Positions 20,277 through 29,920 of a DNA stretch of 32,000 nt are shown in pieces. This stretch comes from Acaryochloris marina S15 (GTDB lineage Bacteria > Cyanobacteriota > Cyanobacteriia > Thermosynechococcales > Thermosynechococcaceae): positions 3,360,001 through 3,392,000 of the forward strand of contig NZ_CP064923.1 of NCBI RefSeq assembly GCF_018336915.1, written 5' to 3'. Numbering within the stretch: position 1 is the first letter of the stretch; the number at the start of each line of letters is the position of its first letter. Under the pieces are notes generated by a model, which ran no database searches, was not told the DNA's origin, and saw only the letters and a program-made list of their open reading frames with translations. The translations under genes were made by a program, and so were the position numbers.

Positions 20277-21647
20277 ATGAATACTCAAAAGTATGTATCA
20301 ACTTTGAAAATCTTCCCTACGCTGCTCGGTCTAGCAAGCATGAGTGTTTTGACCAGCTTACCTAGCGTTGCCAGCCAATCTTCCCTTCTCTCTAACTCAT
20401 CCACACAACTGATAGCTGAAGCTGAAGCCCCTAAAGAGCTTTCTCCTGCTGCCTTGAAAGTTCTATGCAAGAACTTCCCTCTGAACTCTCGTTGCACTGG
20501 AGCAGCAACCGAAACTAGCGAAGATGCTTCAGCAACGGATAGTGCTCCTGCTGATACTACAGTATCTGCAGAAGAAGAATCGGCTGATTCCCCCGCCATG
20601 AGCGATGCTCCAGGTGGTGAAGTAGATGCTGCGGCTGAGCCGACAGATACTGCAGAGGGTGGCGCAGAACAACCCACCGAAACACCGACTGCCAGTGACG
20701 CTCCTGCTGACGATGCAATGGGAGCTACTGATGAAACGGATGCCGCTGCAGAAGGTGGTGCAGAACAACCTACTGACGATCCATCTGTCAGTGATGCCCC
20801 TGCTGACGATGCAATGGGAGCTACTGATGAAACGGACGCCGCTGCGGAAGGTGGTGCAGAACAACCTACTGACGATCCATCTGCCAGTGATGCCCCTGCT
20901 GATGATGCAGTGAATGCTACCGACGAGACGGACGCCACTGCAGAAGGTGGTGCAGAACAACCTGCTGACGATCCATCTGCTGGTGATGCCACTACACCGG
21001 ATGCCACTGCTCCGACAATGACAGCTCCCACTGTCGCTCCTCCCACTGTTACTCCCCCAACCGTAACTCCCCCTGTTTCAGGTCCTGAAGGCGGTGAAGG
21101 TGGTGCTGCACAACCCGCTGATGATACCGGTGCCACTCCTACAGCTCCTATAGAGGAAACGAGCCCTGAAGGAGCAATGCCTTCAGAAACTGAACAACCC
21201 TCCAGCAGTACCCCTGAAACCACTCCAAGTGCTGATGCTTTAAAGCCAGAAGCTGATTCTGCATCAGGAGAACAATCCTCCATCTCTGAGGGTGAGCTTA
21301 AGCAATTTGCAACCGCCATACCTCAATTAAGTTCACTTGAGAAAACAACCAAAGGGGAAATTTCCCAAGTGATTGGTCAGTCAGGACTGACCCAAGATAA
21401 GTTCAATTCTCTATACAATGGGCAGCAAGCCAGTAGCCCAGCAGTAGATGCCACTGATGCAGAAAAACAGTCCTTTGAACAAGCAATGACCAAAATTCAG
21501 GCCATTGAAAAAAAGGGGCAAGCAGAGCAAGAAAAAGTGATTCGTTCCCAAGGACTAGAACCTCAGAGATTTAGTCAGATCTTAGCGGCTGTTCGCCAAG
21601 ACCAATCCTTGCGAACCAAAGTTCAGCAGATGTTACAAACAAACTAG
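20277..21647 (+). CDS. Secreted polyanionic repeat protein with DUF4168-like C-terminal domain
   Basis: 456-aa ORF with AGGAG 5 nt upstream and an N-terminal signal peptide (LLGLASMSVLTSLPSVASQ). About 270 aa are D/E/A/T/P-rich, including 32-aa tandem repeats and PTVxPP repeats. The C-terminal ~130 aa contain two helical half-repeats (ELKQFATAIPQL...GLTQDKFNSL and KQSFEQAMTKIQAI...GLEPQRFSQILAAVRQDQSLRTKVQQML) resembling DUF4168 as I recall it. Confidence 0.8.
   Translation: MNTQKYVSTLKIFPTLLGLASMSVLTSLPSVASQSSLLSNSSTQLIAEAEAPKELSPAALKVLCKNFPLNSRCTGAATETSEDASATDSAPADTTVSAEEESADSPAMSDAPGGEVDAAAEPTDTAEGGAEQPTETPTASDAPADDAMGATDETDAAAEGGAEQPTDDPSVSDAPADDAMGATDETDAAAEGGAEQPTDDPSASDAPADDAVNATDETDATAEGGAEQPADDPSAGDATTPDATAPTMTAPTVAPPTVTPPTVTPPVSGPEGGEGGAAQPADDTGATPTAPIEETSPEGAMPSETEQPSSSTPETTPSADALKPEADSASGEQSSISEGELKQFATAIPQLSSLEKTTKGEISQVIGQSGLTQDKFNSLYNGQQASSPAVDATDAEKQSFEQAMTKIQAIEKKGQAEQEKVIRSQGLEPQRFSQILAAVRQDQSLRTKVQQMLQTN
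20625..20990 (+). repeat. 96-bp in-frame tandem repeat (3 full units plus a degenerate leading unit)
   Basis: Units at 20697-20792, 20793-20888 and 20889-20984 are >90% identical. Each encodes DAPADDAMGATDETDAAAEGGAEQPTDDPS(V/A)S. A 72-nt degenerate copy occupies 20625-20696. Confidence 0.9.
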
Positions 21648-21793: not shown

Positions 21794-22471
21794 ATGAAGC
21801 TTCTACTAGTAGAAGATGACGAGCGAATTGCAGAAGCATTGGCAGAAGATCTGACGGATCAGCACTATGCAGTAGATATAGCCCATGATGGAGAAATGGG
21901 CTGGGAACTACTGGAGGCATTTACCTATGATTTGGTTTTGCTAGATGTTATGTTGCCCAAGATGGATGGTTTGGCTTTCTGTCGGCAGATGAGAGACCAA
22001 GGTTTGGATATTCCCGTACTGATGCTGACAGCTCGAGATACTACAGCAAATAAAGTCGATGGGCTAGACGCAGGTGCCGATGATTATGTTGTCAAACCTT
22101 GTGAGTTAGAGGAAATATCGGCCAGAATTCGGGCCCTTTTGCGTCGGAGTCCCATGACTTCGCCACCAATCCTGGAATGGGAGGATCTGAAGCTAAATCC
22201 CAATACCTGCGAGGTCTTCTTTCAAGAAGGGCTGATTGCTTTGACTCCCAAAGAATATAGCCTGTTGGAGCTTTTTTTAAGAAACAAACGTCGAGTATTC
22301 AGTCGAGCCCAAATCCTGGAGCATCTTTGGGCTTATGAAGTTTTACCAGAAGAAGATACGGTAAAAGCCCATATCAAAGGGTTACGGCATAAGTTGAAAG
22401 GGGCAGGAGCCCCCAATGATTTAATTCAAACGGTCTATGGTTTTGGCTATCGTCTTAAACAGGTTTCGTAA
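21794..22471 (+). CDS. OmpR/PhoB-family response regulator
   Basis: 225-aa ORF. The receiver domain reads MKLLLVEDDERIAEAL...YDLVLLDVMLPKMDG...MLTARD...DAGADDYVVKP. The winged-helix output reads LTPKEYSLLELFLRN...VYGFGYRL. Confidence 0.93.
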   Translation: MKLLLVEDDERIAEALAEDLTDQHYAVDIAHDGEMGWELLEAFTYDLVLLDVMLPKMDGLAFCRQMRDQGLDIPVLMLTARDTTANKVDGLDAGADDYVVKPCELEEISARIRALLRRSPMTSPPILEWEDLKLNPNTCEVFFQEGLIALTPKEYSLLELFLRNKRRVFSRAQILEHLWAYEVLPEEDTVKAHIKGLRHKLKGAGAPNDLIQTVYGFGYRLKQVS

Positions 22472-23840
22472 TCCTCTCTTTCAAGGATTGCGGTGGCGTT
22501 TATTGCTGTCTTACTTATTGGTTATGGCAGCAATCTTGGCCGTTTTTAGCGTACAAGTCTATGTCTTTGTAAGTCGACGACTCTACGCCCAAATTGATGC
22601 AGAGCTACAAACTTTAGCTCAATCTGCAGCCCTTTCTCTCTCAGATATTAAACAGGAAGGCAAGCCCTATCTCGATAAAGTAGATAAAGTTCCATGGCGC
22701 GATATCTTTAATCGAGACCGACATAGTTTGGAATGGTTCACAGCAGATGGTCGGTTGTTGGCTCGGAAAGGGGCGATTACACTTCACTTGCCACCCAAAC
22801 TGAGAGAACAAAATATTGTTGTCCGAGTCATACGAGAAGAGAAGTCTTTTCAGGTTCGTGCATTTACTATTTCTGTTCATAGCGATGCCGATGCGCTAAA
22901 GCGCCCCTTACTAGAAGGATATATTCGGGCTAGTCAGTCCATTACTCCTGTAGAAAAAGCTCAGCTGAGGCTGCTTTGGGGACTAGGAGTAGGAGGAACG
23001 ATTGCACTAGGTTTAGTCGGAATAGGAGGGTTGTGGCTAACGGAATATTCACTAAAACCAGTTGAGCAAAGTTTTTTGAGGCTAAAGCAGTTTACTGCGG
23101 ACGCTTCCCATGAGTTACGAACTCCCCTAACAGTGATCAAAACATCTGTTGAGGTGATGATGAATCATCCAGAAAGAGTCCACCCCAAAGATGCAAAAAA
23201 ACTGGCGGCTATTTCTAGTGCAACTGCACAAATGAACCGATTAGTTGAAGATCTACTCTTTTTGGCGAGAACAGATACATCTGTACCAACTGCCCGACGA
23301 GAATGGACTAGAGTGGCTTTAGATGAAGTCCTGAAGGACTTAGTCGACTTTTTAGATCCTTCTGCTCAAACTCAAGGGGTTGAATTAGTGACCCAAGGCA
23401 TTGTTCCAATGACATTAGTTGGAGATGCCATGCAATTGGCTCGATTATTCTCAAATCTATTAAGGAATGCTGTGGCTTACACCCCTTCTGGGGGAAAAGT
23501 GACTCTATCTGTAGCGCGGACTAACCAGGTCACCATTATTAGTGTGGAGGATACTGGAATAGGCATCTCTAAAGAACAAATTCCCTATATCTTTAACCGC
23601 TTTTATCGTGTAGATAAGCACCGAGCTCGAAGGCAAGGAGGCTTAGGCCTTGGGTTGGCTATAGCTCAATCCATTGCTCAACTTCATAAAGGCAAAATTA
23701 CTATTCAGAGTCAAGTTGGGGTAGGGAGTTGTTTCCGAGTTCATTTACCAACGGTACAAATGGGTGTCATTGAAGTATCTAATAACTCTATTCAGTTAGC
23801 TTCTAGGAGTACTCCACTAGTATCTCCAAAAGTTAAATAA
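22437..23840 (+). CDS. Sensor histidine kinase (HisKA plus HATPase_c, two-TM periplasmic-sensing type)
   Basis: 467-aa ORF with TM1 LRWRLLLSYLLVMAAILAVF, a ~140-aa periplasmic segment and TM2 LLWGLGVGGTIALGLVGIGGLWL. Kinase boxes: H-box FTADASHELRTPLT, N-box LFSNLLRNAVAYT, G1 VEDTGIGI, G2 GGLGLGLAIA. The ATG at 22437 overlaps the regulator gene by 35 nt. The in-frame TTG at 22488 is an alternative start. Confidence 0.9.
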   Translation: MVLAIVLNRFRNPLFQGLRWRLLLSYLLVMAAILAVFSVQVYVFVSRRLYAQIDAELQTLAQSAALSLSDIKQEGKPYLDKVDKVPWRDIFNRDRHSLEWFTADGRLLARKGAITLHLPPKLREQNIVVRVIREEKSFQVRAFTISVHSDADALKRPLLEGYIRASQSITPVEKAQLRLLWGLGVGGTIALGLVGIGGLWLTEYSLKPVEQSFLRLKQFTADASHELRTPLTVIKTSVEVMMNHPERVHPKDAKKLAAISSATAQMNRLVEDLLFLARTDTSVPTARREWTRVALDEVLKDLVDFLDPSAQTQGVELVTQGIVPMTLVGDAMQLARLFSNLLRNAVAYTPSGGKVTLSVARTNQVTIISVEDTGIGISKEQIPYIFNRFYRVDKHRARRQGGLGLGLAIAQSIAQLHKGKITIQSQVGVGSCFRVHLPTVQMGVIEVSNNSIQLASRSTPLVSPKVK

Positions 23841-24678: not shown

Positions 24679-25200
24679 TTATTTCGCTTGAGAGTTTTCT
24701 GGCCCGTGATGTCGGCGGCCATGTCGGCGGCCCCAACGGCCTCTCCTTTGCTTCTTTAGCTCTGCCATTTTAGTTCGTTGCTCAGGAGTGAGGACTTGTC
24801 GAATCTTTAGTTTAGTTTCAAATCGGGCCTCACCCATGTCACGGCGCAAATCTTGTAAAATTCGATGTTGCGCTCTCAATTCATCATCAGATGCATCGCT
24901 AGCCATCAAGGCTTGCATTTTGTCTTTAGCCGCTCGCAAAGCTTCTCGTTTTGCTTGCTTATCCTGTTTATTCTGCTCCCGAATTTGATCGATTTCTGAG
25001 ACTTGATCCGGGCTAAGATTCAGTTGCTGGCGGAACTGCTCTCGTCGACGTTTTCTAAATTCTTCCTTATTCGGTTTTTCAGTCGTTTCTTGTGCAATTG
25101 CGTAACTAGGAAACAAAGATTCGGTCGCAACAGTCAAACCATTACCTATTGGGAGTAATAGCGGTAGGGCAGCCAGTAAATAAACAGCACGGAATTTCAT
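24679..25200 (-). CDS. Periplasmic Spy/CpxP/ZraP-family (LTxxQ) protein with Arg/His-rich C-terminal tail
   Basis: 173 aa from the ATG at 25198-25200, with AAGAGG 9 nt upstream. Signal peptide: MKFRAVYLLAALPLLLPIGNG...AIAQE. Two LTxxQ-type motifs (LNLSPDQ and VLTPEQR) sit in a charged helical protein. The tail is RRGRWGRRHGRRHHGPENSQAK. The 50-codon upstream extension in the track (to 25350) looks non-coding. Confidence 0.8.
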   Translation of the reverse strand: MKFRAVYLLAALPLLLPIGNGLTVATESLFPSYAIAQETTEKPNKEEFRKRRREQFRQQLNLSPDQVSEIDQIREQNKQDKQAKREALRAAKDKMQALMASDASDDELRAQHRILQDLRRDMGEARFETKLKIRQVLTPEQRTKMAELKKQRRGRWGRRHGRRHHGPENSQAK

Positions 25201-25630: not shown

Positions 25631-26054
25631 CCCCATCCTCAATAAATATGCTGCCTACAAGATTCACGAAATATCTAATAATTTATTCATAGTCTGATTT
25701 AAGAATAGGGACAATAGTCTTAACGGAAGAATTAAATCTAGAGATCTTGCAGATCAAACTTACTAGCATATAGCTCAATACCTCTCTGAGATTAAACTAT
25801 GACGATAGATCCAGAACTAAAAACTCAGTAAGATCACGCTGACAAGCAGAAAGTATCACGTTGTTCATGTGATCCAAATCGGATGATTCATTGGCCTTTA
25901 CCGATAAGTTAGGAAAAGAGAGATAAACAGATTAGAAGCAAGTTCATTGCTCTTCTATTAATAAGAAATAGAGACTCTAGCATCACTTCATCTAATATAT
26001 CTCTGACAAATCAGTCAACGTTCTTATTCTATTTTTCTGTTGGAAGAATCTATC

Positions 26055-26192
26055 ATGCTAAAGCCAATTAAAGTTACGCTGCTAGGTCTAATGGCAGCAA
26101 CCACAACCACACTTGCTATCCCCCAAGCTAATGCTTACTCTTCATCGTCGGTTGGGCAACAATCAGAAGCTGCAGAACAAACTCAAAATTAG
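26055..26192 (+). CDS. Mini-ORF encoding a signal peptide plus an 18-residue Ser/Gln/Glu-rich tail (45 aa)
   Basis: It is below the track's size cutoff. ATG at 26055 has GGAAG 9 nt upstream. MLKPIKVTLLGLMAATTTTLAIPQANA|YSSSSVGQQSEAAEQTQN has n-, h- and c-regions with an A-x-A cleavage site. It stops at TAG 26190-26192, directly after an A4 run. Confidence 0.55.
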   Translation: MLKPIKVTLLGLMAATTTTLAIPQANAYSSSSVGQQSEAAEQTQN

Positions 26193-26227
26193 TAGTATCT
26201 CATCATCGCTGGCGAGGAAGACGCAAA

Positions 26228-26371
26228 TTGCGTCGAGTACGCTGGCGCAAAAAGTGGGTATGCTTCAAGCGCCCTGTCGTTTTCTATCGCCATGGACGTA
26301 AAATCGTGAAATTCAAGCGCCACTGCCACTGGAAAAAGTTCCGGGTACATCATGGGGGACATCATTTCTAA
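26228..26371 (+). CDS. Arg/Lys/His/Trp-rich peptide frame (47 aa from a TTG start, or continuation of 26055 ORF by a -1 shift)
   Basis: The -1 frame relative to 26055 is open from 26132 to TAA 26369-26371 (79 codons, no ATG). It encodes ...HHRWRGRRKLRRVRWRKKWVCFKRPVVFYRHGRKIVKFKRHCHWKKFRVHHGGHHF. TTG at 26228 has GAGGAAG ~10 nt upstream. The composition is far from random, but the start is unresolved. Confidence 0.35.
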   Translation: MRRVRWRKKWVCFKRPVVFYRHGRKIVKFKRHCHWKKFRVHHGGHHF

Positions 26372-26435
26372 AATTGATGCAAGTTGATTTCAACCTCAGG
26401 CCTGAGATTCATCAATAATGTCATCGATTCAATAT

Positions 26436-26481
26436 AATTAAGCGGCTCTAGAAAACTTCAATCCCATAAAGCCGCTTAATT
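26436..26481. terminator. 12-bp perfect inverted repeat between convergent genes
   Basis: AATTAAGCGGCT (26436-26447) pairs with AGCCGCTTAATT (26470-26481) around a 22-nt loop. It lies between the 26371 stop (+) and the 26510 stop (-). Confidence 0.4.
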
Positions 26482-26509
26482 GAGAAACTACAAAGTCTGG
26501 CGCAGTCTT

Positions 26510-27367: not shown

Positions 27368-27967
27368 TAATAAAATTTAGAACAATCGAATAATGAGCAA
27401 TTTCATTAGTTAAAAATGCCACCATTCACCTAATCCAGAAAGAAGAAAAAACTGCCTATTATTGAGATTTAAATTCATCCTGTACCTATGAGATGAATGC
27501 CAATAGTAAAAATAAAGCTATTATCTCGACCTAGGTATGAATCAGAGAAACTAGAGGCCCCATAAGCTATATCAGCGATATCTTACTTTTTTATGCAAGT
27601 ATGTCTGTTAAAGACAAAGCTTGGGAATATTTTCTACTATCAAATCTTGCTGCATCCATAAATTCAATTACATATTGCTAAGAGAATAGTTATTGCAACG
27701 ATACATAGTTAACATTGGAGAAGTTGTCGTGTCTTGACACTAATCACTACAGCAATATCCAGTCCCTAGACCCATGACAAAAAGGAAGTCTTTTCAATAA
27801 CGTGCATACAGATGCTGGGCGTAGAAAGTCGGTCTTTTCAGAATCCTGACAATTGTTTATAGAATTTAGCTGAGCTTAAGCCTATTTCCAGAAAGAGTGA
27901 TCTATCATCTGACAGGAAAATCTTCCGAATTGATCGAAATCCTCACTATTGCAAGGATTAAGCCTTT

Positions 27968-29452
27968 ATGATTGCAACTGCACCATCGCCTGATTCTCAT
28001 CAAGATGATCTTCAGTCTCTGTTACCCAATCTCACAGGTCGGGAATCAGAACTAGCAGCTCTGGCGAACCACTCTGAACCGATTTATTTACCCACTACTG
28101 ATCTACGGCTAGAGAACATTCACTCCAGTTTTGCTTGTGCCCTTCATATGCACCAGCCCACCATTCCAGCCGGCTCTGAGGGAGCATTGATCAGCAACCT
28201 GCAGCATATGTTTGAGAATCCTGGCGATGGTGATAACCATAACGCTGAAGTTTTTGCCTGGTGTTACAGCCGAATGGGAGATTTTATCCCTGAATTGGTA
28301 AGCGCTGGCTGCTCTCCAAGAATTATGCTGGATTACTCCGGCAACCTTCTGTGGGGACTCCATCAGATGGGTCGGAACGATATTCTGGATAATCTGAAGA
28401 AGCTGACTTGTAATCCTCAATATCAACCCTATGTTGAGTGGTTGGGCACCATGTGGAGTCATGCTGTTGCACCTTCCACACCCATCCCCGATTTAAAATT
28501 ACAAATTCAGGCATGGCAGCAGTATTTTGCCAGCCTGTTTGGGGATGAAGCACTGAAACGGGTCAAAGGGTTTTCTCCCCCTGAAATGCATCTGCCTAAC
28601 CATCCCGATACCCTCTTTGAATACATCAAAGCTCTGAAAGAATGTGGTTATCGTTGGCTGATGGTACAAGAACATTCTGTTGAGCGCCTAGATGGATCAG
28701 ACTTATGGCATGACGATAAGTACATTCCTAATCAGCTCGTAGCCCGCAACTCACAAGGCGAGACCATCAGCATCACCGCTTTGATCAAAACTCAAGGTTC
28801 TGATACGAAGCTTGTTGCTCAAATGCAGCCTTACCACGAGGCCAAAGGTCGACAACGCCAAGAAATTGGAGGTATCTCAGTCCCCTCTTGTGTGACCCAA
28901 ATCGCCGATGGTGAAAATGGGGGCGTAATGATGAATGAATTCGCTCGTGACTACCAGCCCGTTTGGCATGAGCTGAAAAATCAAGGATCTGGTGTCACGG
29001 GTATCCATGGTACGGAGTATTTAGAGCTATTGGATGCTGCGGGCGTAAGTCCAGACGATTATCCCACTTGCCAAGCGGTGGGCCAATATAAGATCTGGAA
29101 CAAGATTGGGACTGACACGGTTAGCCCGAAAAAGGTTGAAACCGCGATTCAAGAGCTACAAGCTACCGATCATCAGTTCCATATGGATGGGGCCTCTTGG
29201 ACGGACGACTTGAGCTGGGTGAAGGGGTATGAGAATGTTCTCGAACCCATGAACCAGTTGAGCGCTATGTTTCATCAGAAATATGATCTATTAGTCCAAG
29301 CTGATTCAACCACTACTCAACAGGCTGATTACCAGGAAGCTTTACTCTATGTTCTCTTAGTAGAAACGAGCTGTTTCCGGTATTGGGGCCAGGGGACTTG
29401 GACTGACTATGCTCGTGAACTATTTCGACGGGGGGAAAGTCTACTGAAGTAG
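27968..29452 (+). CDS. Glycoside hydrolase family 57-like protein
   Basis: 494-aa ORF with GH57 region-I-like CALHMHQP, region-IV-like IADGENGGVMMNEF and region-V-like ETSCFRYWGQG. Substrate specificity is unknown. Confidence 0.65.
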   Translation: MIATAPSPDSHQDDLQSLLPNLTGRESELAALANHSEPIYLPTTDLRLENIHSSFACALHMHQPTIPAGSEGALISNLQHMFENPGDGDNHNAEVFAWCYSRMGDFIPELVSAGCSPRIMLDYSGNLLWGLHQMGRNDILDNLKKLTCNPQYQPYVEWLGTMWSHAVAPSTPIPDLKLQIQAWQQYFASLFGDEALKRVKGFSPPEMHLPNHPDTLFEYIKALKECGYRWLMVQEHSVERLDGSDLWHDDKYIPNQLVARNSQGETISITALIKTQGSDTKLVAQMQPYHEAKGRQRQEIGGISVPSCVTQIADGENGGVMMNEFARDYQPVWHELKNQGSGVTGIHGTEYLELLDAAGVSPDDYPTCQAVGQYKIWNKIGTDTVSPKKVETAIQELQATDHQFHMDGASWTDDLSWVKGYENVLEPMNQLSAMFHQKYDLLVQADSTTTQQADYQEALLYVLLVETSCFRYWGQGTWTDYARELFRRGESLLK

Positions 29453-29539
29453 TCATTTCTCTACTTTTTAAGGTTAAAGCCGGACTTGCTCTTTTAAGCA
29501 AAAGTTTGGTTTTAATCTTCATGGTTGGGAATAAGCGAC

Positions 29540-29920
29540 TTAATACATGTTGTCAATCAATGCGCTGGAAAGAGTATTTGCGCCTCGTCCATAACCGCTT
29601 ACCATCACAGTGATACGCTTATTGGCACGACGTCGTTTCGCAAATTGAGAACAATCGATAATGGCAGAATAGTCTGCATTATCAGCGAATATAAACGGGG
29701 TATTGTTGATATTCACATCTGGCTTCCGCACCTTAAGGCCTTCCCGTCTGAGGGAAACTGTGGCTCTGCGCATACAGTCCCATTGATTTAATCGGACCGT
29801 ACCGTAGCGATAAAAGAGGGCAGGCCCCGCAAATGCGCCAAAGGTACTGACGGCTTGAACGCCTACGGCTACAGATGCCATCACTAGTGCTTTTGTAGAA
29901 ATCTTATTGAACTTAGACAT
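29540..29920 (-). CDS. Hypothetical secreted basic protein (126 aa, two Cys)
   Basis: ATG at 29918-29920 has AGGAGA 8 nt upstream. Signal peptide: MSKFNKISTKALVMASVAVGVQAVSTFGAFA|GP. The mature part belongs to no family I recognise. The track ORF's 9 extra N-terminal codons are unlikely. Confidence 0.55.
   Translation of the reverse strand: MSKFNKISTKALVMASVAVGVQAVSTFGAFAGPALFYRYGTVRLNQWDCMRRATVSLRREGLKVRKPDVNINNTPFIFADNADYSAIIDCSQFAKRRRANKRITVMVSGYGRGANTLSSALIDNMY

What the first reader, a model, noticed from the sequence alone, without database searches (positions are those of the whole stretch)
26055..26371. Unannotated mini-gene: a signal-peptide ORF stops at an A4-TAG junction and the -1 frame continues as a start-less Arg/Lys/His/Trp-rich peptide
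ATG 26055 opens a textbook Sec signal peptide (MLKPIKVTLLGLMAATTTTLAIPQANA|Y...), but the ORF ends at TAG 26190-26192 after only 18 mature residues. The -1 frame is open for 79 codons (26132-26371) and has no ATG. From 26192 it reads VVSHHRWRGRRKLRRVRWRKKWVCFKRPVVFYRHGRKIVKFKRHCHWKKFRVHHGGHHF, which has 22 of 59 residues Arg/Lys, 9 His, 4 Trp, 2 Cys, an H-C-H motif and an HHGGHH C-terminus. The junction is ACT CAA AAT TAG, with the A4 run at 26185-26188 directly before the stop. Either a -1 slip of the AAU-decoding tRNA onto AAA or one extra A in the true genome would join the signal peptide to the basic His-rich module, giving a secreted protein of ~105 aa. The alternative is an independent 47-aa peptide from TTG 26228 with GAGGAAG upstream. 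Three readings remain possible: a recoded gene, a homopolymer assembly error, or a two-peptide operon. No automatic annotation would capture any of them. The His/Cys/Trp content suggests metal binding or membrane activity.
Basis: partly seen in the sequence, partly recalled or inferred. Interest (0 to 1): 0.7.

Follow-up and report, generated by a model that had tools for sequence, protein, structure and literature searches.

The report
Frameshifted small secreted cationic protein gene
The two pieces are halves of one small, conserved Acaryochloris gene for a secreted, very basic beta-hairpin protein; in this strain a 4-base deletion split it, so this is an ordinary broken gene and not programmed recoding.

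Summary
ATG 26055 opens a 45-codon signal-peptide ORF that stops at TAG 26190-26192. The -1 frame then runs without a Met to 26371 as an Arg/Lys/His/Trp-rich peptide.

The conceptual fusion is a real gene. Thirteen database clusters, all from Acaryochloris where a source names them, encode it as one ORF of 92-109 aa. dN/dS in the fused frame is 0.08-0.24.

Fourteen independent samples from close relatives (96-99.4% DNA identity) carry an intact 321-bp ORF at the same syntenic locus. They read ...CAAAGTACATTAGTAG... where the window reads ...CAAA----ATTAGTAG....

The window therefore lacks exactly GTAC. That deletion creates the A4 run and moves a pre-existing out-of-frame TAG into frame. No relative has a slippery site, so programmed frameshifting and the two-peptide operon are rejected. 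A 1-base homopolymer error is also not what happened.

Most likely this is a very recent strain-specific inactivating deletion. An assembly error is not excluded. The syntenic copy in A. marina MBIC11017 is an older pseudogene with three lesions, and that genome keeps three intact paralogues elsewhere.

The family is a lineage-restricted orphan. It has a Sec signal peptide, a polar linker and a +22 cationic region, which is predicted to form a long Cys-Cys-stapled beta-hairpin. Its function is unknown.

The parts
25854..25874 (.). Conserved palindrome TATCAC-N9-GTGATC, about 180-200 bp upstream of the ATG. Candidate operator of the gene family.
   Evidence: It occurs exactly once in every fetched locus that carries an intact family member, including the non-syntenic MBIC11017 paralogues. 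The only family locus without a match is the decayed MBIC11017 pseudogene (L017). Its function is inferred, not tested.
26003..26030 (+). Promoter-like site CTGACA-16-TATTCT overlapping the conserved block ATCAGTCAACGTTC.
   Evidence: Consensus scan, 9 of 12 matches, and no more sites in the region than shuffles give. Block conservation is seen. This is weak evidence.
26042..26048 (+). Shine-Dalgarno-like GGAAGAA. The family consensus is GGAGGAA.
   Evidence: Alignment of the upstream regions of 7 family members.
26055..26135 (+). Sec-type signal peptide, residues 1-27 (MLKPIKVTLLGLMAATTTTLAIPQANA), with A-x-A at -3/-1.
   Evidence: Translation. AIPQANA is invariant across 14 sequences. Pooled pN/pS is 0.09. 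Assessed by the n/h/c-region rule only; SignalP was not available.
26136..26192 (+). Remnant of the polar or acidic linker (YSSSSVGQQSEAAEQTQN) followed by the premature stop TAG 26190-26192.
26187..26188 (+). Deletion scar: GTAC is missing between these two bases. Relatives read CAAAGTACATTAG. The loss creates the A4 run 26185-26188 and brings the TAG of TTAGTAG into frame.
   Evidence: DNA alignments with 14 independent samples.
26189..26371 (+). Ancestral reading frame after the scar (residues 47-106 of the intact protein, LVVSHHRWRG...HHGGHHF, plus the stop). It has no start codon of its own and is identical in sequence to the intact alleles.
   Evidence: 0 mismatches to the Moss Beach-type allele. 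dN/dS is 0.05-0.18 for this part among family members.
26240..26347 (+). Region coding for the predicted long beta-hairpin (residues 64-99, net charge +15), with Cys71 (26261-26263) and Cys92 as cross-strand partners.
   Evidence: AlphaFold2 on a 13-sequence alignment gives strands 64-80 and 83-99; the 10-residue blocks 71-90 average pLDDT 94 and those on either side 81 and 87. The register is 71+92 = 80+83. Both Cys are invariant. Pooled pN/pS is 0.17.
26435..26484 (.). Stem of about 13 bp (AATTAAGCGGCT...AGCCGCTTAATT) between the convergent mini-gene and the DUF1350 gene. Probably a bidirectional terminator hairpin.
   Evidence: RNA fold of 26365-26500 gives -30.4 kcal/mol, z = -3.4. No T-run, so the terminator scan did not list it.

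Best explanation
The region is one gene, not two. It belongs to an Acaryochloris-restricted family of proteins of about 100 aa. Each has a Sec signal peptide (cleavage after AIPQANA), a polar or acidic linker of about 23 residues, and a C-terminal part of about 56 residues that is extremely basic (+22) and rich in Arg, Lys, Trp and His. The core of that part is predicted to be a 17+17-residue beta-hairpin stapled by an invariant Cys pair.

In the window's strain a 4-bp deletion (GTAC, between 26187 and 26188) shifted the frame inside the poorly conserved linker. Translation now ends at a formerly out-of-frame TAG after 18 mature residues, and the whole cationic module is left without a start codon.

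This is a very recent loss-of-function allele, a nascent pseudogene. It is not programmed recoding.

Shown: the single-ORF ancestry, the derived and unique deletion, purifying selection on the fused frame, and recurrent decay of the same locus in MBIC11017.

Inferred: (1) the deletion is real rather than an assembly error; (2) the intact protein is exported and acts outside the cytoplasm as a disulfide-stapled polycationic hairpin that binds polyanionic targets such as membranes, LPS or other envelope or extracellular polyanions, much as animal beta-hairpin antimicrobial peptides do; (3) paralogues elsewhere in the genome make the loss tolerable. At most a small unprogrammed fraction of ribosomes could slip from AAU to AAA at the stop and restore the frame.
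For: 1. The fusion matches 13 single-ORF proteins of 92-109 aa at up to 100% coverage, E = 4e-62 to 2e-28.
2. Intact 321-bp ORFs sit at the syntenic locus (LTXXQ | gene | DUF1350 | 494-aa | 126-aa | UvrB) in 14 independent samples at 96-99.4% DNA identity. One is the complete genome of Acaryochloris sp. 'Moss Beach' (HRE53_01850). The window alone lacks GTAC and otherwise has 0 mismatches in the gene.
3. dN/dS in the fused frame is 0.08-0.24 with synonymous sites near saturation; pooled pN/pS is 0.17 for the hairpin.
4. The syntenic copy in A. marina MBIC11017 has ATG>TTT, a frameshift with a TGA after the signal peptide, and TGG>TGA. Three intact paralogues lie elsewhere, on the chromosome at 6.25 Mb and 2.41 Mb and on plasmid pREB8.
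5. The window shows no 1-bp indel against the Logan assemblies of its closest relatives (20.8-30.3 kb; two indels in all, a polymorphic 5-bp one and the GTAC loss). Its few 1-bp differences from the more distant Moss Beach genome lie in non-coding spacers. An independent Logan contig (SRR12447961) is 100% identical to window 27731-29680. This argues for a clean assembly.
6. AlphaFold2 predicts the hairpin at 64-80/83-99 (block-mean pLDDT 94 over residues 71-90, 81-87 on either side), with Cys71 and Cys92 in register.
Against: No read-level data or second assembly of the same strain across 26150-26220 could be retrieved (searches found nothing), so an assembly or sequencing artefact is not excluded. 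The allele carries no second lesion, so decay cannot be shown. There is no expression or proteomic data. The function of the intact protein rests only on composition and a predicted fold. Foldseek found nothing significant, and there are no Pfam, NCBIfam, PHROGs or PDB matches. No adjacent immunity or export gene supports a bacteriocin-like role.
Confidence: 0.74

Rival explanations
1. Assembly or sequencing artefact: the true genome of this strain carries GTAC and an intact 106-aa ORF, and the 4-bp gap arose during assembly or polishing.
For: The allele has no mismatch to intact alleles apart from the deletion. The deletion is seen in only one sequence, the window. No independent contig of the same strain over the site could be found.
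Against: A clean 4-bp loss is not a typical homopolymer or short-read error. The window has no 1-bp indel against its closest relatives, and its few 1-bp differences from the Moss Beach genome lie in non-coding spacers. An independent Logan contig is 100% identical to the window over 1950 bp nearby. The same locus has demonstrably decayed in MBIC11017, so loss is biologically plausible.
Confidence: 0.2
2. Programmed -1 ribosomal frameshifting at A-AAU-UAG (tRNA-Asn slipping onto AAA at a hungry stop) is the normal way this strain makes the full-length protein.
For: Shift-prone geometry: a run of four A followed by a stop codon. A slip would restore the full C-terminal module with only one residue lost.
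Against: The site does not exist in any of 14 close-relative samples or in any paralogue; it is created by the deletion. It is not an X XXY YYZ heptamer, because a P-site Gln codon CAA would have to re-pair on UCA. No conserved stimulatory element is present, and the sequence downstream is ordinary coding sequence identical to the intact alleles. Rfam found nothing.
Confidence: 0.03
3. Two-peptide operon: a 45-aa secreted acidic mini-peptide plus an independent 47-aa basic peptide initiated at TTG 26228 behind GAGGAAG.
For: Both ORFs exist and a purine-rich stretch precedes the TTG.
Against: In every relative these are internal codons of one ORF. The Leu codon and the R-G-R-R stretch are not conserved in other members, which have RIRRV, RVRRV or KFRRV. 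A 47-aa product would lack the signal peptide that is invariant in the family. Neither short product is on record as a called gene anywhere.
Confidence: 0.03

Closest known systems
Frameshift pseudogenes or strain-specific loss-of-function alleles of accessory genes
   Same: Intact collinear orthologues exist in close relatives. There is a derived, unique small indel and a premature stop shortly after it. The same locus decayed independently in another lineage, MBIC11017.
   Different: There is only one lesion and no further decay, so the event is very recent or, less likely, an artefact.
Programmed -1 frameshift genes (dnaX, IS3-family transposases)
   Same: An upstream ORF ends just after an A-run and the -1 frame continues as a start-less ORF.
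   Different: There is no canonical heptamer, no stimulator and no conservation. The A-run itself is absent from every orthologue.
Disulfide-stapled cationic beta-hairpin antimicrobial peptides of animals (tachyplesin, protegrin, arenicin, thanatin); comparison from general knowledge
   Same: A precursor made of a signal peptide, a polar or anionic pro-region and a very cationic Arg/Trp/aromatic-rich module. That module is predicted to be a two-stranded antiparallel hairpin with a cross-strand disulfide.
   Different: The origin is bacterial (cyanobacterial). The hairpin is about twice as long (36 residues) and has a single disulfide. Extra Arg-rich N-terminal and His-rich C-terminal extensions are present. 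There is no sequence or Foldseek similarity and no activity data.
Sec-dependent class II bacteriocins (e.g. enterocin P, lactococcin 972); comparison from general knowledge
   Same: A small cationic ribosomal peptide with an ordinary Sec signal peptide and a Cys pair. The family is multi-copy, one copy is plasmid-borne and one is flanked by IS elements, and it shows presence/absence and pseudogene variation.
   Different: No adjacent immunity gene is conserved across copies. The host is Gram-negative, so crossing the outer membrane is unexplained. There is no homology.
Spy/CpxP/ZraP (LTXXQ) periplasmic stress proteins next to two-component systems: the neighbour, not the gene itself
   Same: The syntenic copy lies divergent from an LTXXQ gene (PF07813, E = 1.3e-7). 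That gene sits beside an OmpR-type response regulator and a histidine kinase, a layout like cpxP-cpxRA. The LTXXQ protein ends in an RRGRWGRRHGRRHHG tail of similar composition.
   Different: The mini-protein has no LTXXQ similarity. Paralogues at other loci lack this neighbourhood. LTXXQ stays intact in MBIC11017 where the mini-gene is dead. No functional link is shown.

Membership tests
Programmed -1 ribosomal frameshift site | Slippery heptamer X XXY YYZ allowing tandem re-pairing | tested here: not met
   The zero-frame codons are CAA AAT and the -1 codons are TCA AAA. The P-site codon cannot re-pair, so only a single-tRNA slip from AAU to AAA is conceivable.
Programmed -1 ribosomal frameshift site | Frameshift site and two-ORF arrangement conserved in orthologues | tested here: not met
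   All 14 close-relative samples and all paralogues encode a single ORF. The A4 run and in-frame TAG are absent from them.
Programmed -1 ribosomal frameshift site | Measured frameshift efficiency or a trans-frame product | not testable with these tools
   This needs a reporter assay or proteomics.
Frameshift pseudogene or null allele | Intact collinear orthologue in close relatives, with the lesion derived | tested here: met
   The same flanking genes are present. The gene has 0 mismatches to the Moss Beach-type allele apart from the GTAC loss. More distant members are also in frame.
Frameshift pseudogene or null allele | Lesion present in the organism's DNA and not an artefact | tested here: inconclusive
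   Indirect support only. The window has no 1-bp indel against its closest relatives, and its few against the Moss Beach genome are in non-coding spacers. A 1950-bp independent contig nearby is 100% identical. No reads or contig across the site were obtained.
Frameshift pseudogene or null allele | Ancestral gene under purifying selection, i.e. a real gene | tested here: met
   dN/dS is 0.08-0.24 over 20 of the 21 pairwise comparisons (0.62 for the near-identical pair, which differs at only 3 sites), with dS of about 1 or more.
Sec-exported protein | N-terminal signal peptide with n-, h- and c-regions and A-x-A at -3/-1 | tested here: met
   MLKPIK / VTLLGLMAATTTTLAI / PQANA|Y. The cleavage motif is invariant in 14 sequences. 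This is a rule-based reading; no predictor was run and no experiment done.
Disulfide-stapled cationic beta-hairpin peptides (AMP-like) | Two-stranded antiparallel hairpin with cross-strand Cys and high net positive charge | tested here: met
   AlphaFold2 gives block-mean pLDDT 94 for residues 71-90 (81 and 87 for the blocks on either side). Cys71 and Cys92 are in register, and the hairpin has net charge +15. This is a prediction only.
Disulfide-stapled cationic beta-hairpin peptides (AMP-like) | Homology to a known AMP family | tested here: not met
   No Pfam, NCBIfam or PDB sequence hit and no Foldseek hit below E = 0.9.
Disulfide-stapled cationic beta-hairpin peptides (AMP-like) | Antimicrobial or membrane-permeabilising activity | not testable with these tools
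   This needs purified peptide and MIC or leakage assays.
Sec-dependent bacteriocin locus | Conserved adjacent immunity or accessory gene | tested here: not met
   Neighbours differ between the syntenic locus, pREB8/chromosome 6.25 Mb and chromosome 2.41 Mb.

The most novel reading that the evidence does not exclude
The family (HRE53_01850 / AM1_6190 type) could be a previously unrecognised class of Sec-exported, disulfide-stapled, hyper-cationic beta-hairpin peptides made by chlorophyll-d cyanobacteria. Such peptides could act on competitors or on anionic envelope or matrix polymers. Every copy would be controlled through the conserved TATCAC-N9-GTGATC palindrome. The window's strain and MBIC11017 would then be natural knock-outs of the syntenic copy.
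Probability: 0.25. Interest if true: 0.55.

Novelty: new member of a known kind. Interest (0 to 1): 0.27.

Why it matters
For the scan, this shows that a tempting 'recoding' signal is simply the scar of a 4-bp deletion. An ORF that stops at an A-run, followed by a start-less ORF in the -1 frame, looked programmed here, and comparison with close relatives settled it in a few steps.

Biologically, the only point of some interest is the gene family itself. It is an orphan, restricted to Acaryochloris, with only 2 hits among 1.84 billion representative proteins. It is multi-copy, with one copy plasmid-borne and one flanked by IS elements, and it is strongly conserved. It encodes a secreted protein with a net charge of about +20 and a confidently predicted long disulfide-stapled beta-hairpin.

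If that protein proves to be an antimicrobial or polyanion-binding effector, it would be an unusual ribosomal peptide class for cyanobacteria. Natural null alleles such as this one would then be useful for testing its role.

Tried and rejected
- **Same-strain contig across the site.** Exact-product look-ups of the 45-aa ORF, the 47-aa ORF and the window's 456-aa neighbour found nothing. Look-ups of DUF1350, LTXXQ and the kinase returned only other strains. The only same-strain contig (SRR12447961, L009) stops 1.3 kb short of the gene.
- **Window as an early version of the 'Moss Beach' genome.** Rejected: CP071717.1 is only 98.3% identical to the window.
- **Link between the lost palindrome GTAC and restriction-modification avoidance.** Rejected: GTAC has O/E 0.79, which is unremarkable among 4-bp palindromes.
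- **Known RNA element or riboswitch.** Rfam found nothing in the whole window.
- **Known protein family.** Pfam, NCBIfam, PHROGs and a PDB sequence profile gave nothing. Foldseek against the PDB returned only generic long hairpins at E >= 0.9.
- **Literature.** There was no hit for AM1_6190. Papers on strain Moss Beach do not treat this gene (titles and abstracts only; papers not read), and a five-term search for cationic beta-hairpin antimicrobial peptides with a signal peptide in cyanobacteria returned only general AMP and toxin papers.
- **Antisense 58-aa ORF (26189-26365) and 62-aa +1-frame ORF (26113-26301).** Treated as by-products of the Arg-codon-rich coding strand. All homology and selection signal lies in the fused frame.
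- **Functional coupling to the LTXXQ / two-component neighbours.** Not supported: paralogues lack them, and LTXXQ survives where the mini-gene is dead.

Full report
**1. Observation**

- ATG 26055 opens MLKPIKVTLLGLMAATTTTLAIPQANAYSSSSVGQQSEAAEQTQN and stops at TAG 26190-26192.
- The -1 frame is open from 26132 to 26368 with TAA at 26369-26371, and has no Met.
- From 26192 it reads VVSHHRWRGRRKLRRVRWRKKWVCFKRPVVFYRHGRKIVKFKRHCHWKKFRVHHGGHHF.
- The residue counts (22 Arg/Lys, 9 His, 4 Trp, 2 Cys) are right.
- The A4 run is at 26185-26188, and TTG 26228 lies behind GAGGAAG.
- GC content rises to 0.48-0.49 across 26100-26400, against about 0.29-0.36 in the flanking spacer, as expected for coding DNA.

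**2. The two pieces are one gene**

I searched the conceptual fusion against 5.8 billion proteins. It returned 13 clusters, all single ORFs of 92-109 aa. They cover up to 100% of the fusion at E = 4e-62 to 2e-28. Every member that carries a name comes from Acaryochloris: sp. 'Moss Beach' HRE53_01850 and HRE53_09635, A. marina NIES-2412, CCMEE 5410, MBIC11017 AM1_6190 and the IP29b bins. All are annotated 'hypothetical protein'.

Nei-Gojobori analysis of seven distinct members in the fused frame gives dN/dS of 0.08-0.24, with dS of about 1 or more. Pooled pN/pS is 0.09 for the signal peptide, 0.47 for the linker and 0.17 for the hairpin region. The fused ORF is therefore the unit under selection. 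The window's '-1 frame' is the true frame of the C-terminal part.

**3. What happened in the window**

Look-ups of neighbouring proteins brought in the syntenic locus from 14 independent samples.
- These are Logan assemblies of SRR12447962/63/65/66/70/71/73 and SRR17348478/79/80/81/83, ENA ERZ6864376, and the complete genome CP071717.1 of strain Moss Beach.
- They are 96-99.4% identical to the window.
- All share the gene order: OmpR-type response regulator, histidine kinase, 74-aa gene, LTXXQ (minus strand), mini-gene (plus), DUF1350 (minus), 494-aa gene, 126-aa gene, UvrB.

All 14 have an intact 321-bp ORF. The nearest alleles read GAA CAA ACT CAA AGT ACA TTA GTA GTA (EQTQSTLVV). The window reads GAA CAA ACT CAA A----A TTA GTA GTA.

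The window therefore lacks exactly GTAC between 26187 and 26188. No other placement of a 4-bp gap reproduces the sequence. Apart from this the window has 0 mismatches to the Moss Beach-type allele across the gene.

The deletion fuses AAA to A, which makes the A4 run. It also shifts the frame so that the TAG hidden in TTAGTAG becomes a stop. The 'A4-TAG junction' is a mutational scar and not an evolved slippery site.

**4. Rejecting the three proposed mechanisms**

- **Programmed frameshifting.** The site is absent from every orthologue and paralogue. It is not an X XXY YYZ heptamer. There is no stimulatory element beyond ordinary coding sequence identical to the intact alleles. Rfam finds nothing.
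- **Homopolymer error of one A.** The lesion is 4 bp. Against the Logan assemblies of its closest relatives (20.8-30.3 kb) the window shows no 1-bp indel. It has only two indels there: this one and a 5-bp GGGAC length polymorphism at about 25712, whose short form some other strains share. Against the more distant Moss Beach genome a few 1-bp indels appear, all in non-coding spacers.
- **Two-peptide operon.** TTG 26228 and GAGGAAG are internal codons (R-G-R-R-K-L). They are not conserved in other family members, which have RIRRV, RVRRV or KFRRV. A product starting there would lack the invariant signal peptide.

**5. Real mutation or artefact?**

This could not be settled directly. I could not retrieve a contig of the same strain across the site.

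Indirect evidence favours a real deletion.
- The assembly is otherwise clean: no 1-bp indel against the closest relatives, and only spacer indels against Moss Beach.
- An independent Logan contig from SRR12447961 is 100% identical to window 27731-29680, whereas all other strains differ there.
- Loss of this particular copy has precedent. The syntenic copy in A. marina MBIC11017 (chromosome about 5.58 Mb, flanked by the same LTXXQ, DUF1350 and 494-aa genes) has lost its ATG (TTT). It also has a frameshift with a TGA just after the signal peptide, and TGG>TGA at Trp94.
- That genome keeps three intact paralogues: chromosome 6.25 Mb (AM1_6190), an identical copy on plasmid pREB8, and one at chromosome 2.41 Mb amid IS elements.

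I put a real deletion at about 0.74, an artefact at about 0.2, and the recoding and two-peptide readings at about 0.03 each.

**6. The gene product**

The family is an orphan.
- A profile search of 1.84 billion representative proteins found only two hits. One is the family's own representative. The other is a 120-aa Logan protein (P0014) with the same layout but an Arg/Tyr-rich basic part.
- There is no Pfam, NCBIfam, PHROGs or PDB match.
- The papers searched say nothing on this gene.

The intact protein (P0015 numbering) has three parts.
- Residues 1-27 are a classical signal peptide with invariant AIPQANA.
- Residues 28-50 are a polar, slightly acidic linker, the least constrained part and the place where the deletion fell.
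- Residues 51-106 have 22 Arg/Lys, no acidic residue, 9 His and 4 Trp, with pI 12 and net charge about +22.

AlphaFold2 on the 13-sequence alignment predicts one element, a beta-hairpin with strands 64-80 and 83-99. The 10-residue blocks 71-90 average pLDDT 94, and those on either side 81 and 87. Everything else is disordered. The invariant Cys71 and Cys92 are exact cross-strand partners (71+92 = 80+83), so a stapling disulfide is likely in an extracytoplasmic compartment. The HHGGHHF tail is not conserved (RHF or HRH in many members), which weakens the metal-binding idea. His91 in the R-H-C motif is invariant.

**7. How the intact protein most likely works (inference)**

It is exported by Sec, its signal peptide is cleaved after ANA, and its two Cys are oxidised to a disulfide. 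It then acts as a rigid polycationic, aromatic-rich hairpin that binds polyanionic surfaces.

Those surfaces could be membranes or LPS of other cells, as with AMPs, or anionic envelope or matrix polymers. The precursor layout and the predicted fold resemble animal beta-hairpin antimicrobial peptides. There is no homology to them, the hairpin is about twice as long, and no immunity or export partner is conserved beside the copies. I hold this functional reading at roughly 0.25-0.35.

In the window's strain the product would be only a signal peptide plus an 18-residue acidic fragment. At best a small unprogrammed fraction of ribosomes could slip at AAU-UAG and restore the frame.

**8. Regulation (noticed)**

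Every intact copy of the family, including the non-syntenic paralogues, carries the palindrome TATCAC-N9-GTGATC exactly once, about 180-200 bp upstream of the ATG (window 25854-25874). The only family locus without a match is the decayed MBIC11017 pseudogene. Further conserved blocks and a GGAGGAA ribosome-binding site are also present; the window clade has GGAAGAA. This suggests a shared operator that travels with the gene when it duplicates. It is untested.

**9. Verdict**

The exciting readings are not. This is an ordinary, very recent frameshift allele of a catalogued but uncharacterised lineage-specific gene, or less likely an assembly gap. Interest is low to moderate and rests on the orphan family, not on the junction.

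Noticed in passing
window 25854-25874 (also L011 3824-3843, L013 3802-3821, L014 1496-1515, L015 3806-3825, L016 3802-3821): A perfect palindrome TATCAC-N9-GTGATC lies about 180-200 bp upstream of every intact family member, once per locus, including the non-syntenic paralogues. The only family locus without a match is the decayed MBIC11017 pseudogene (L017). It is a candidate operator that travels with the gene. The conserved blocks CCGATAAGTTA and ATCAGTCAACGTTC follow it.
   Followed up: partly
window 24679-25200 (-): The divergent neighbour is an LTXXQ (Spy/CpxP/ZraP-like) periplasmic protein. Its C-terminus, KKQRRGRWGRRHGRRHHG, has the same Arg/Trp/His flavour as the mini-protein. It lies next to an OmpR-type response regulator (21794-22471) and a histidine kinase (22437-23840), a layout like cpxP-cpxRA.
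   Followed up: partly
L017 3998-4310 (A. marina MBIC11017 chromosome, about 5.58 Mb): The syntenic copy of the gene in the reference strain is an unannotated decayed pseudogene with a lost ATG, a frameshift and TGG>TGA. Three intact paralogues sit elsewhere in that genome, one of them on plasmid pREB8.
   Followed up: yes
window 20277-21647 (+), repeats at 20650-20990: A 456-aa ORF (DUF4168 in the Moss Beach homologue) contains 3.6 copies of a 96-bp tandem repeat and varies between strains. The window's exact protein is not on record anywhere. A long antisense ORF (20285-21319) overlaps it, probably as a by-product of the repeat.
   Followed up: no
window about 25707-25712: A 5-bp GGGAC copy-number polymorphism in the LTXXQ/mini-gene spacer. 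The window and two other strains (L007/SRR17348481, L032/SRR12447965) have one copy fewer than most relatives.
   Followed up: partly
window 26435-26484: A stem of about 13 bp (AATTAAGCGGCT...AGCCGCTTAATT) lies between the convergent mini-gene and DUF1350. The fold has z = -3.4. There is no T-run, so it was missed by the terminator scan. It is probably a bidirectional terminator.
   Followed up: partly
P0017 (Logan, 111 aa) and P0014 (Logan, 120 aa): P0017 is a family member whose C-terminus changes to HHGGYGVHTSRI, apparently another frame-changing variant. P0014 is the only distant relative found, with the same layout but an Arg/Tyr-rich basic region and a C...C hairpin motif.
   Followed up: no
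window 26006: A window-specific SNP (G in all relatives, A here) turns CTGGCA into CTGACA. This improves the match to a -35 hexamer in the only promoter-like site upstream of the broken gene.
   Followed up: no
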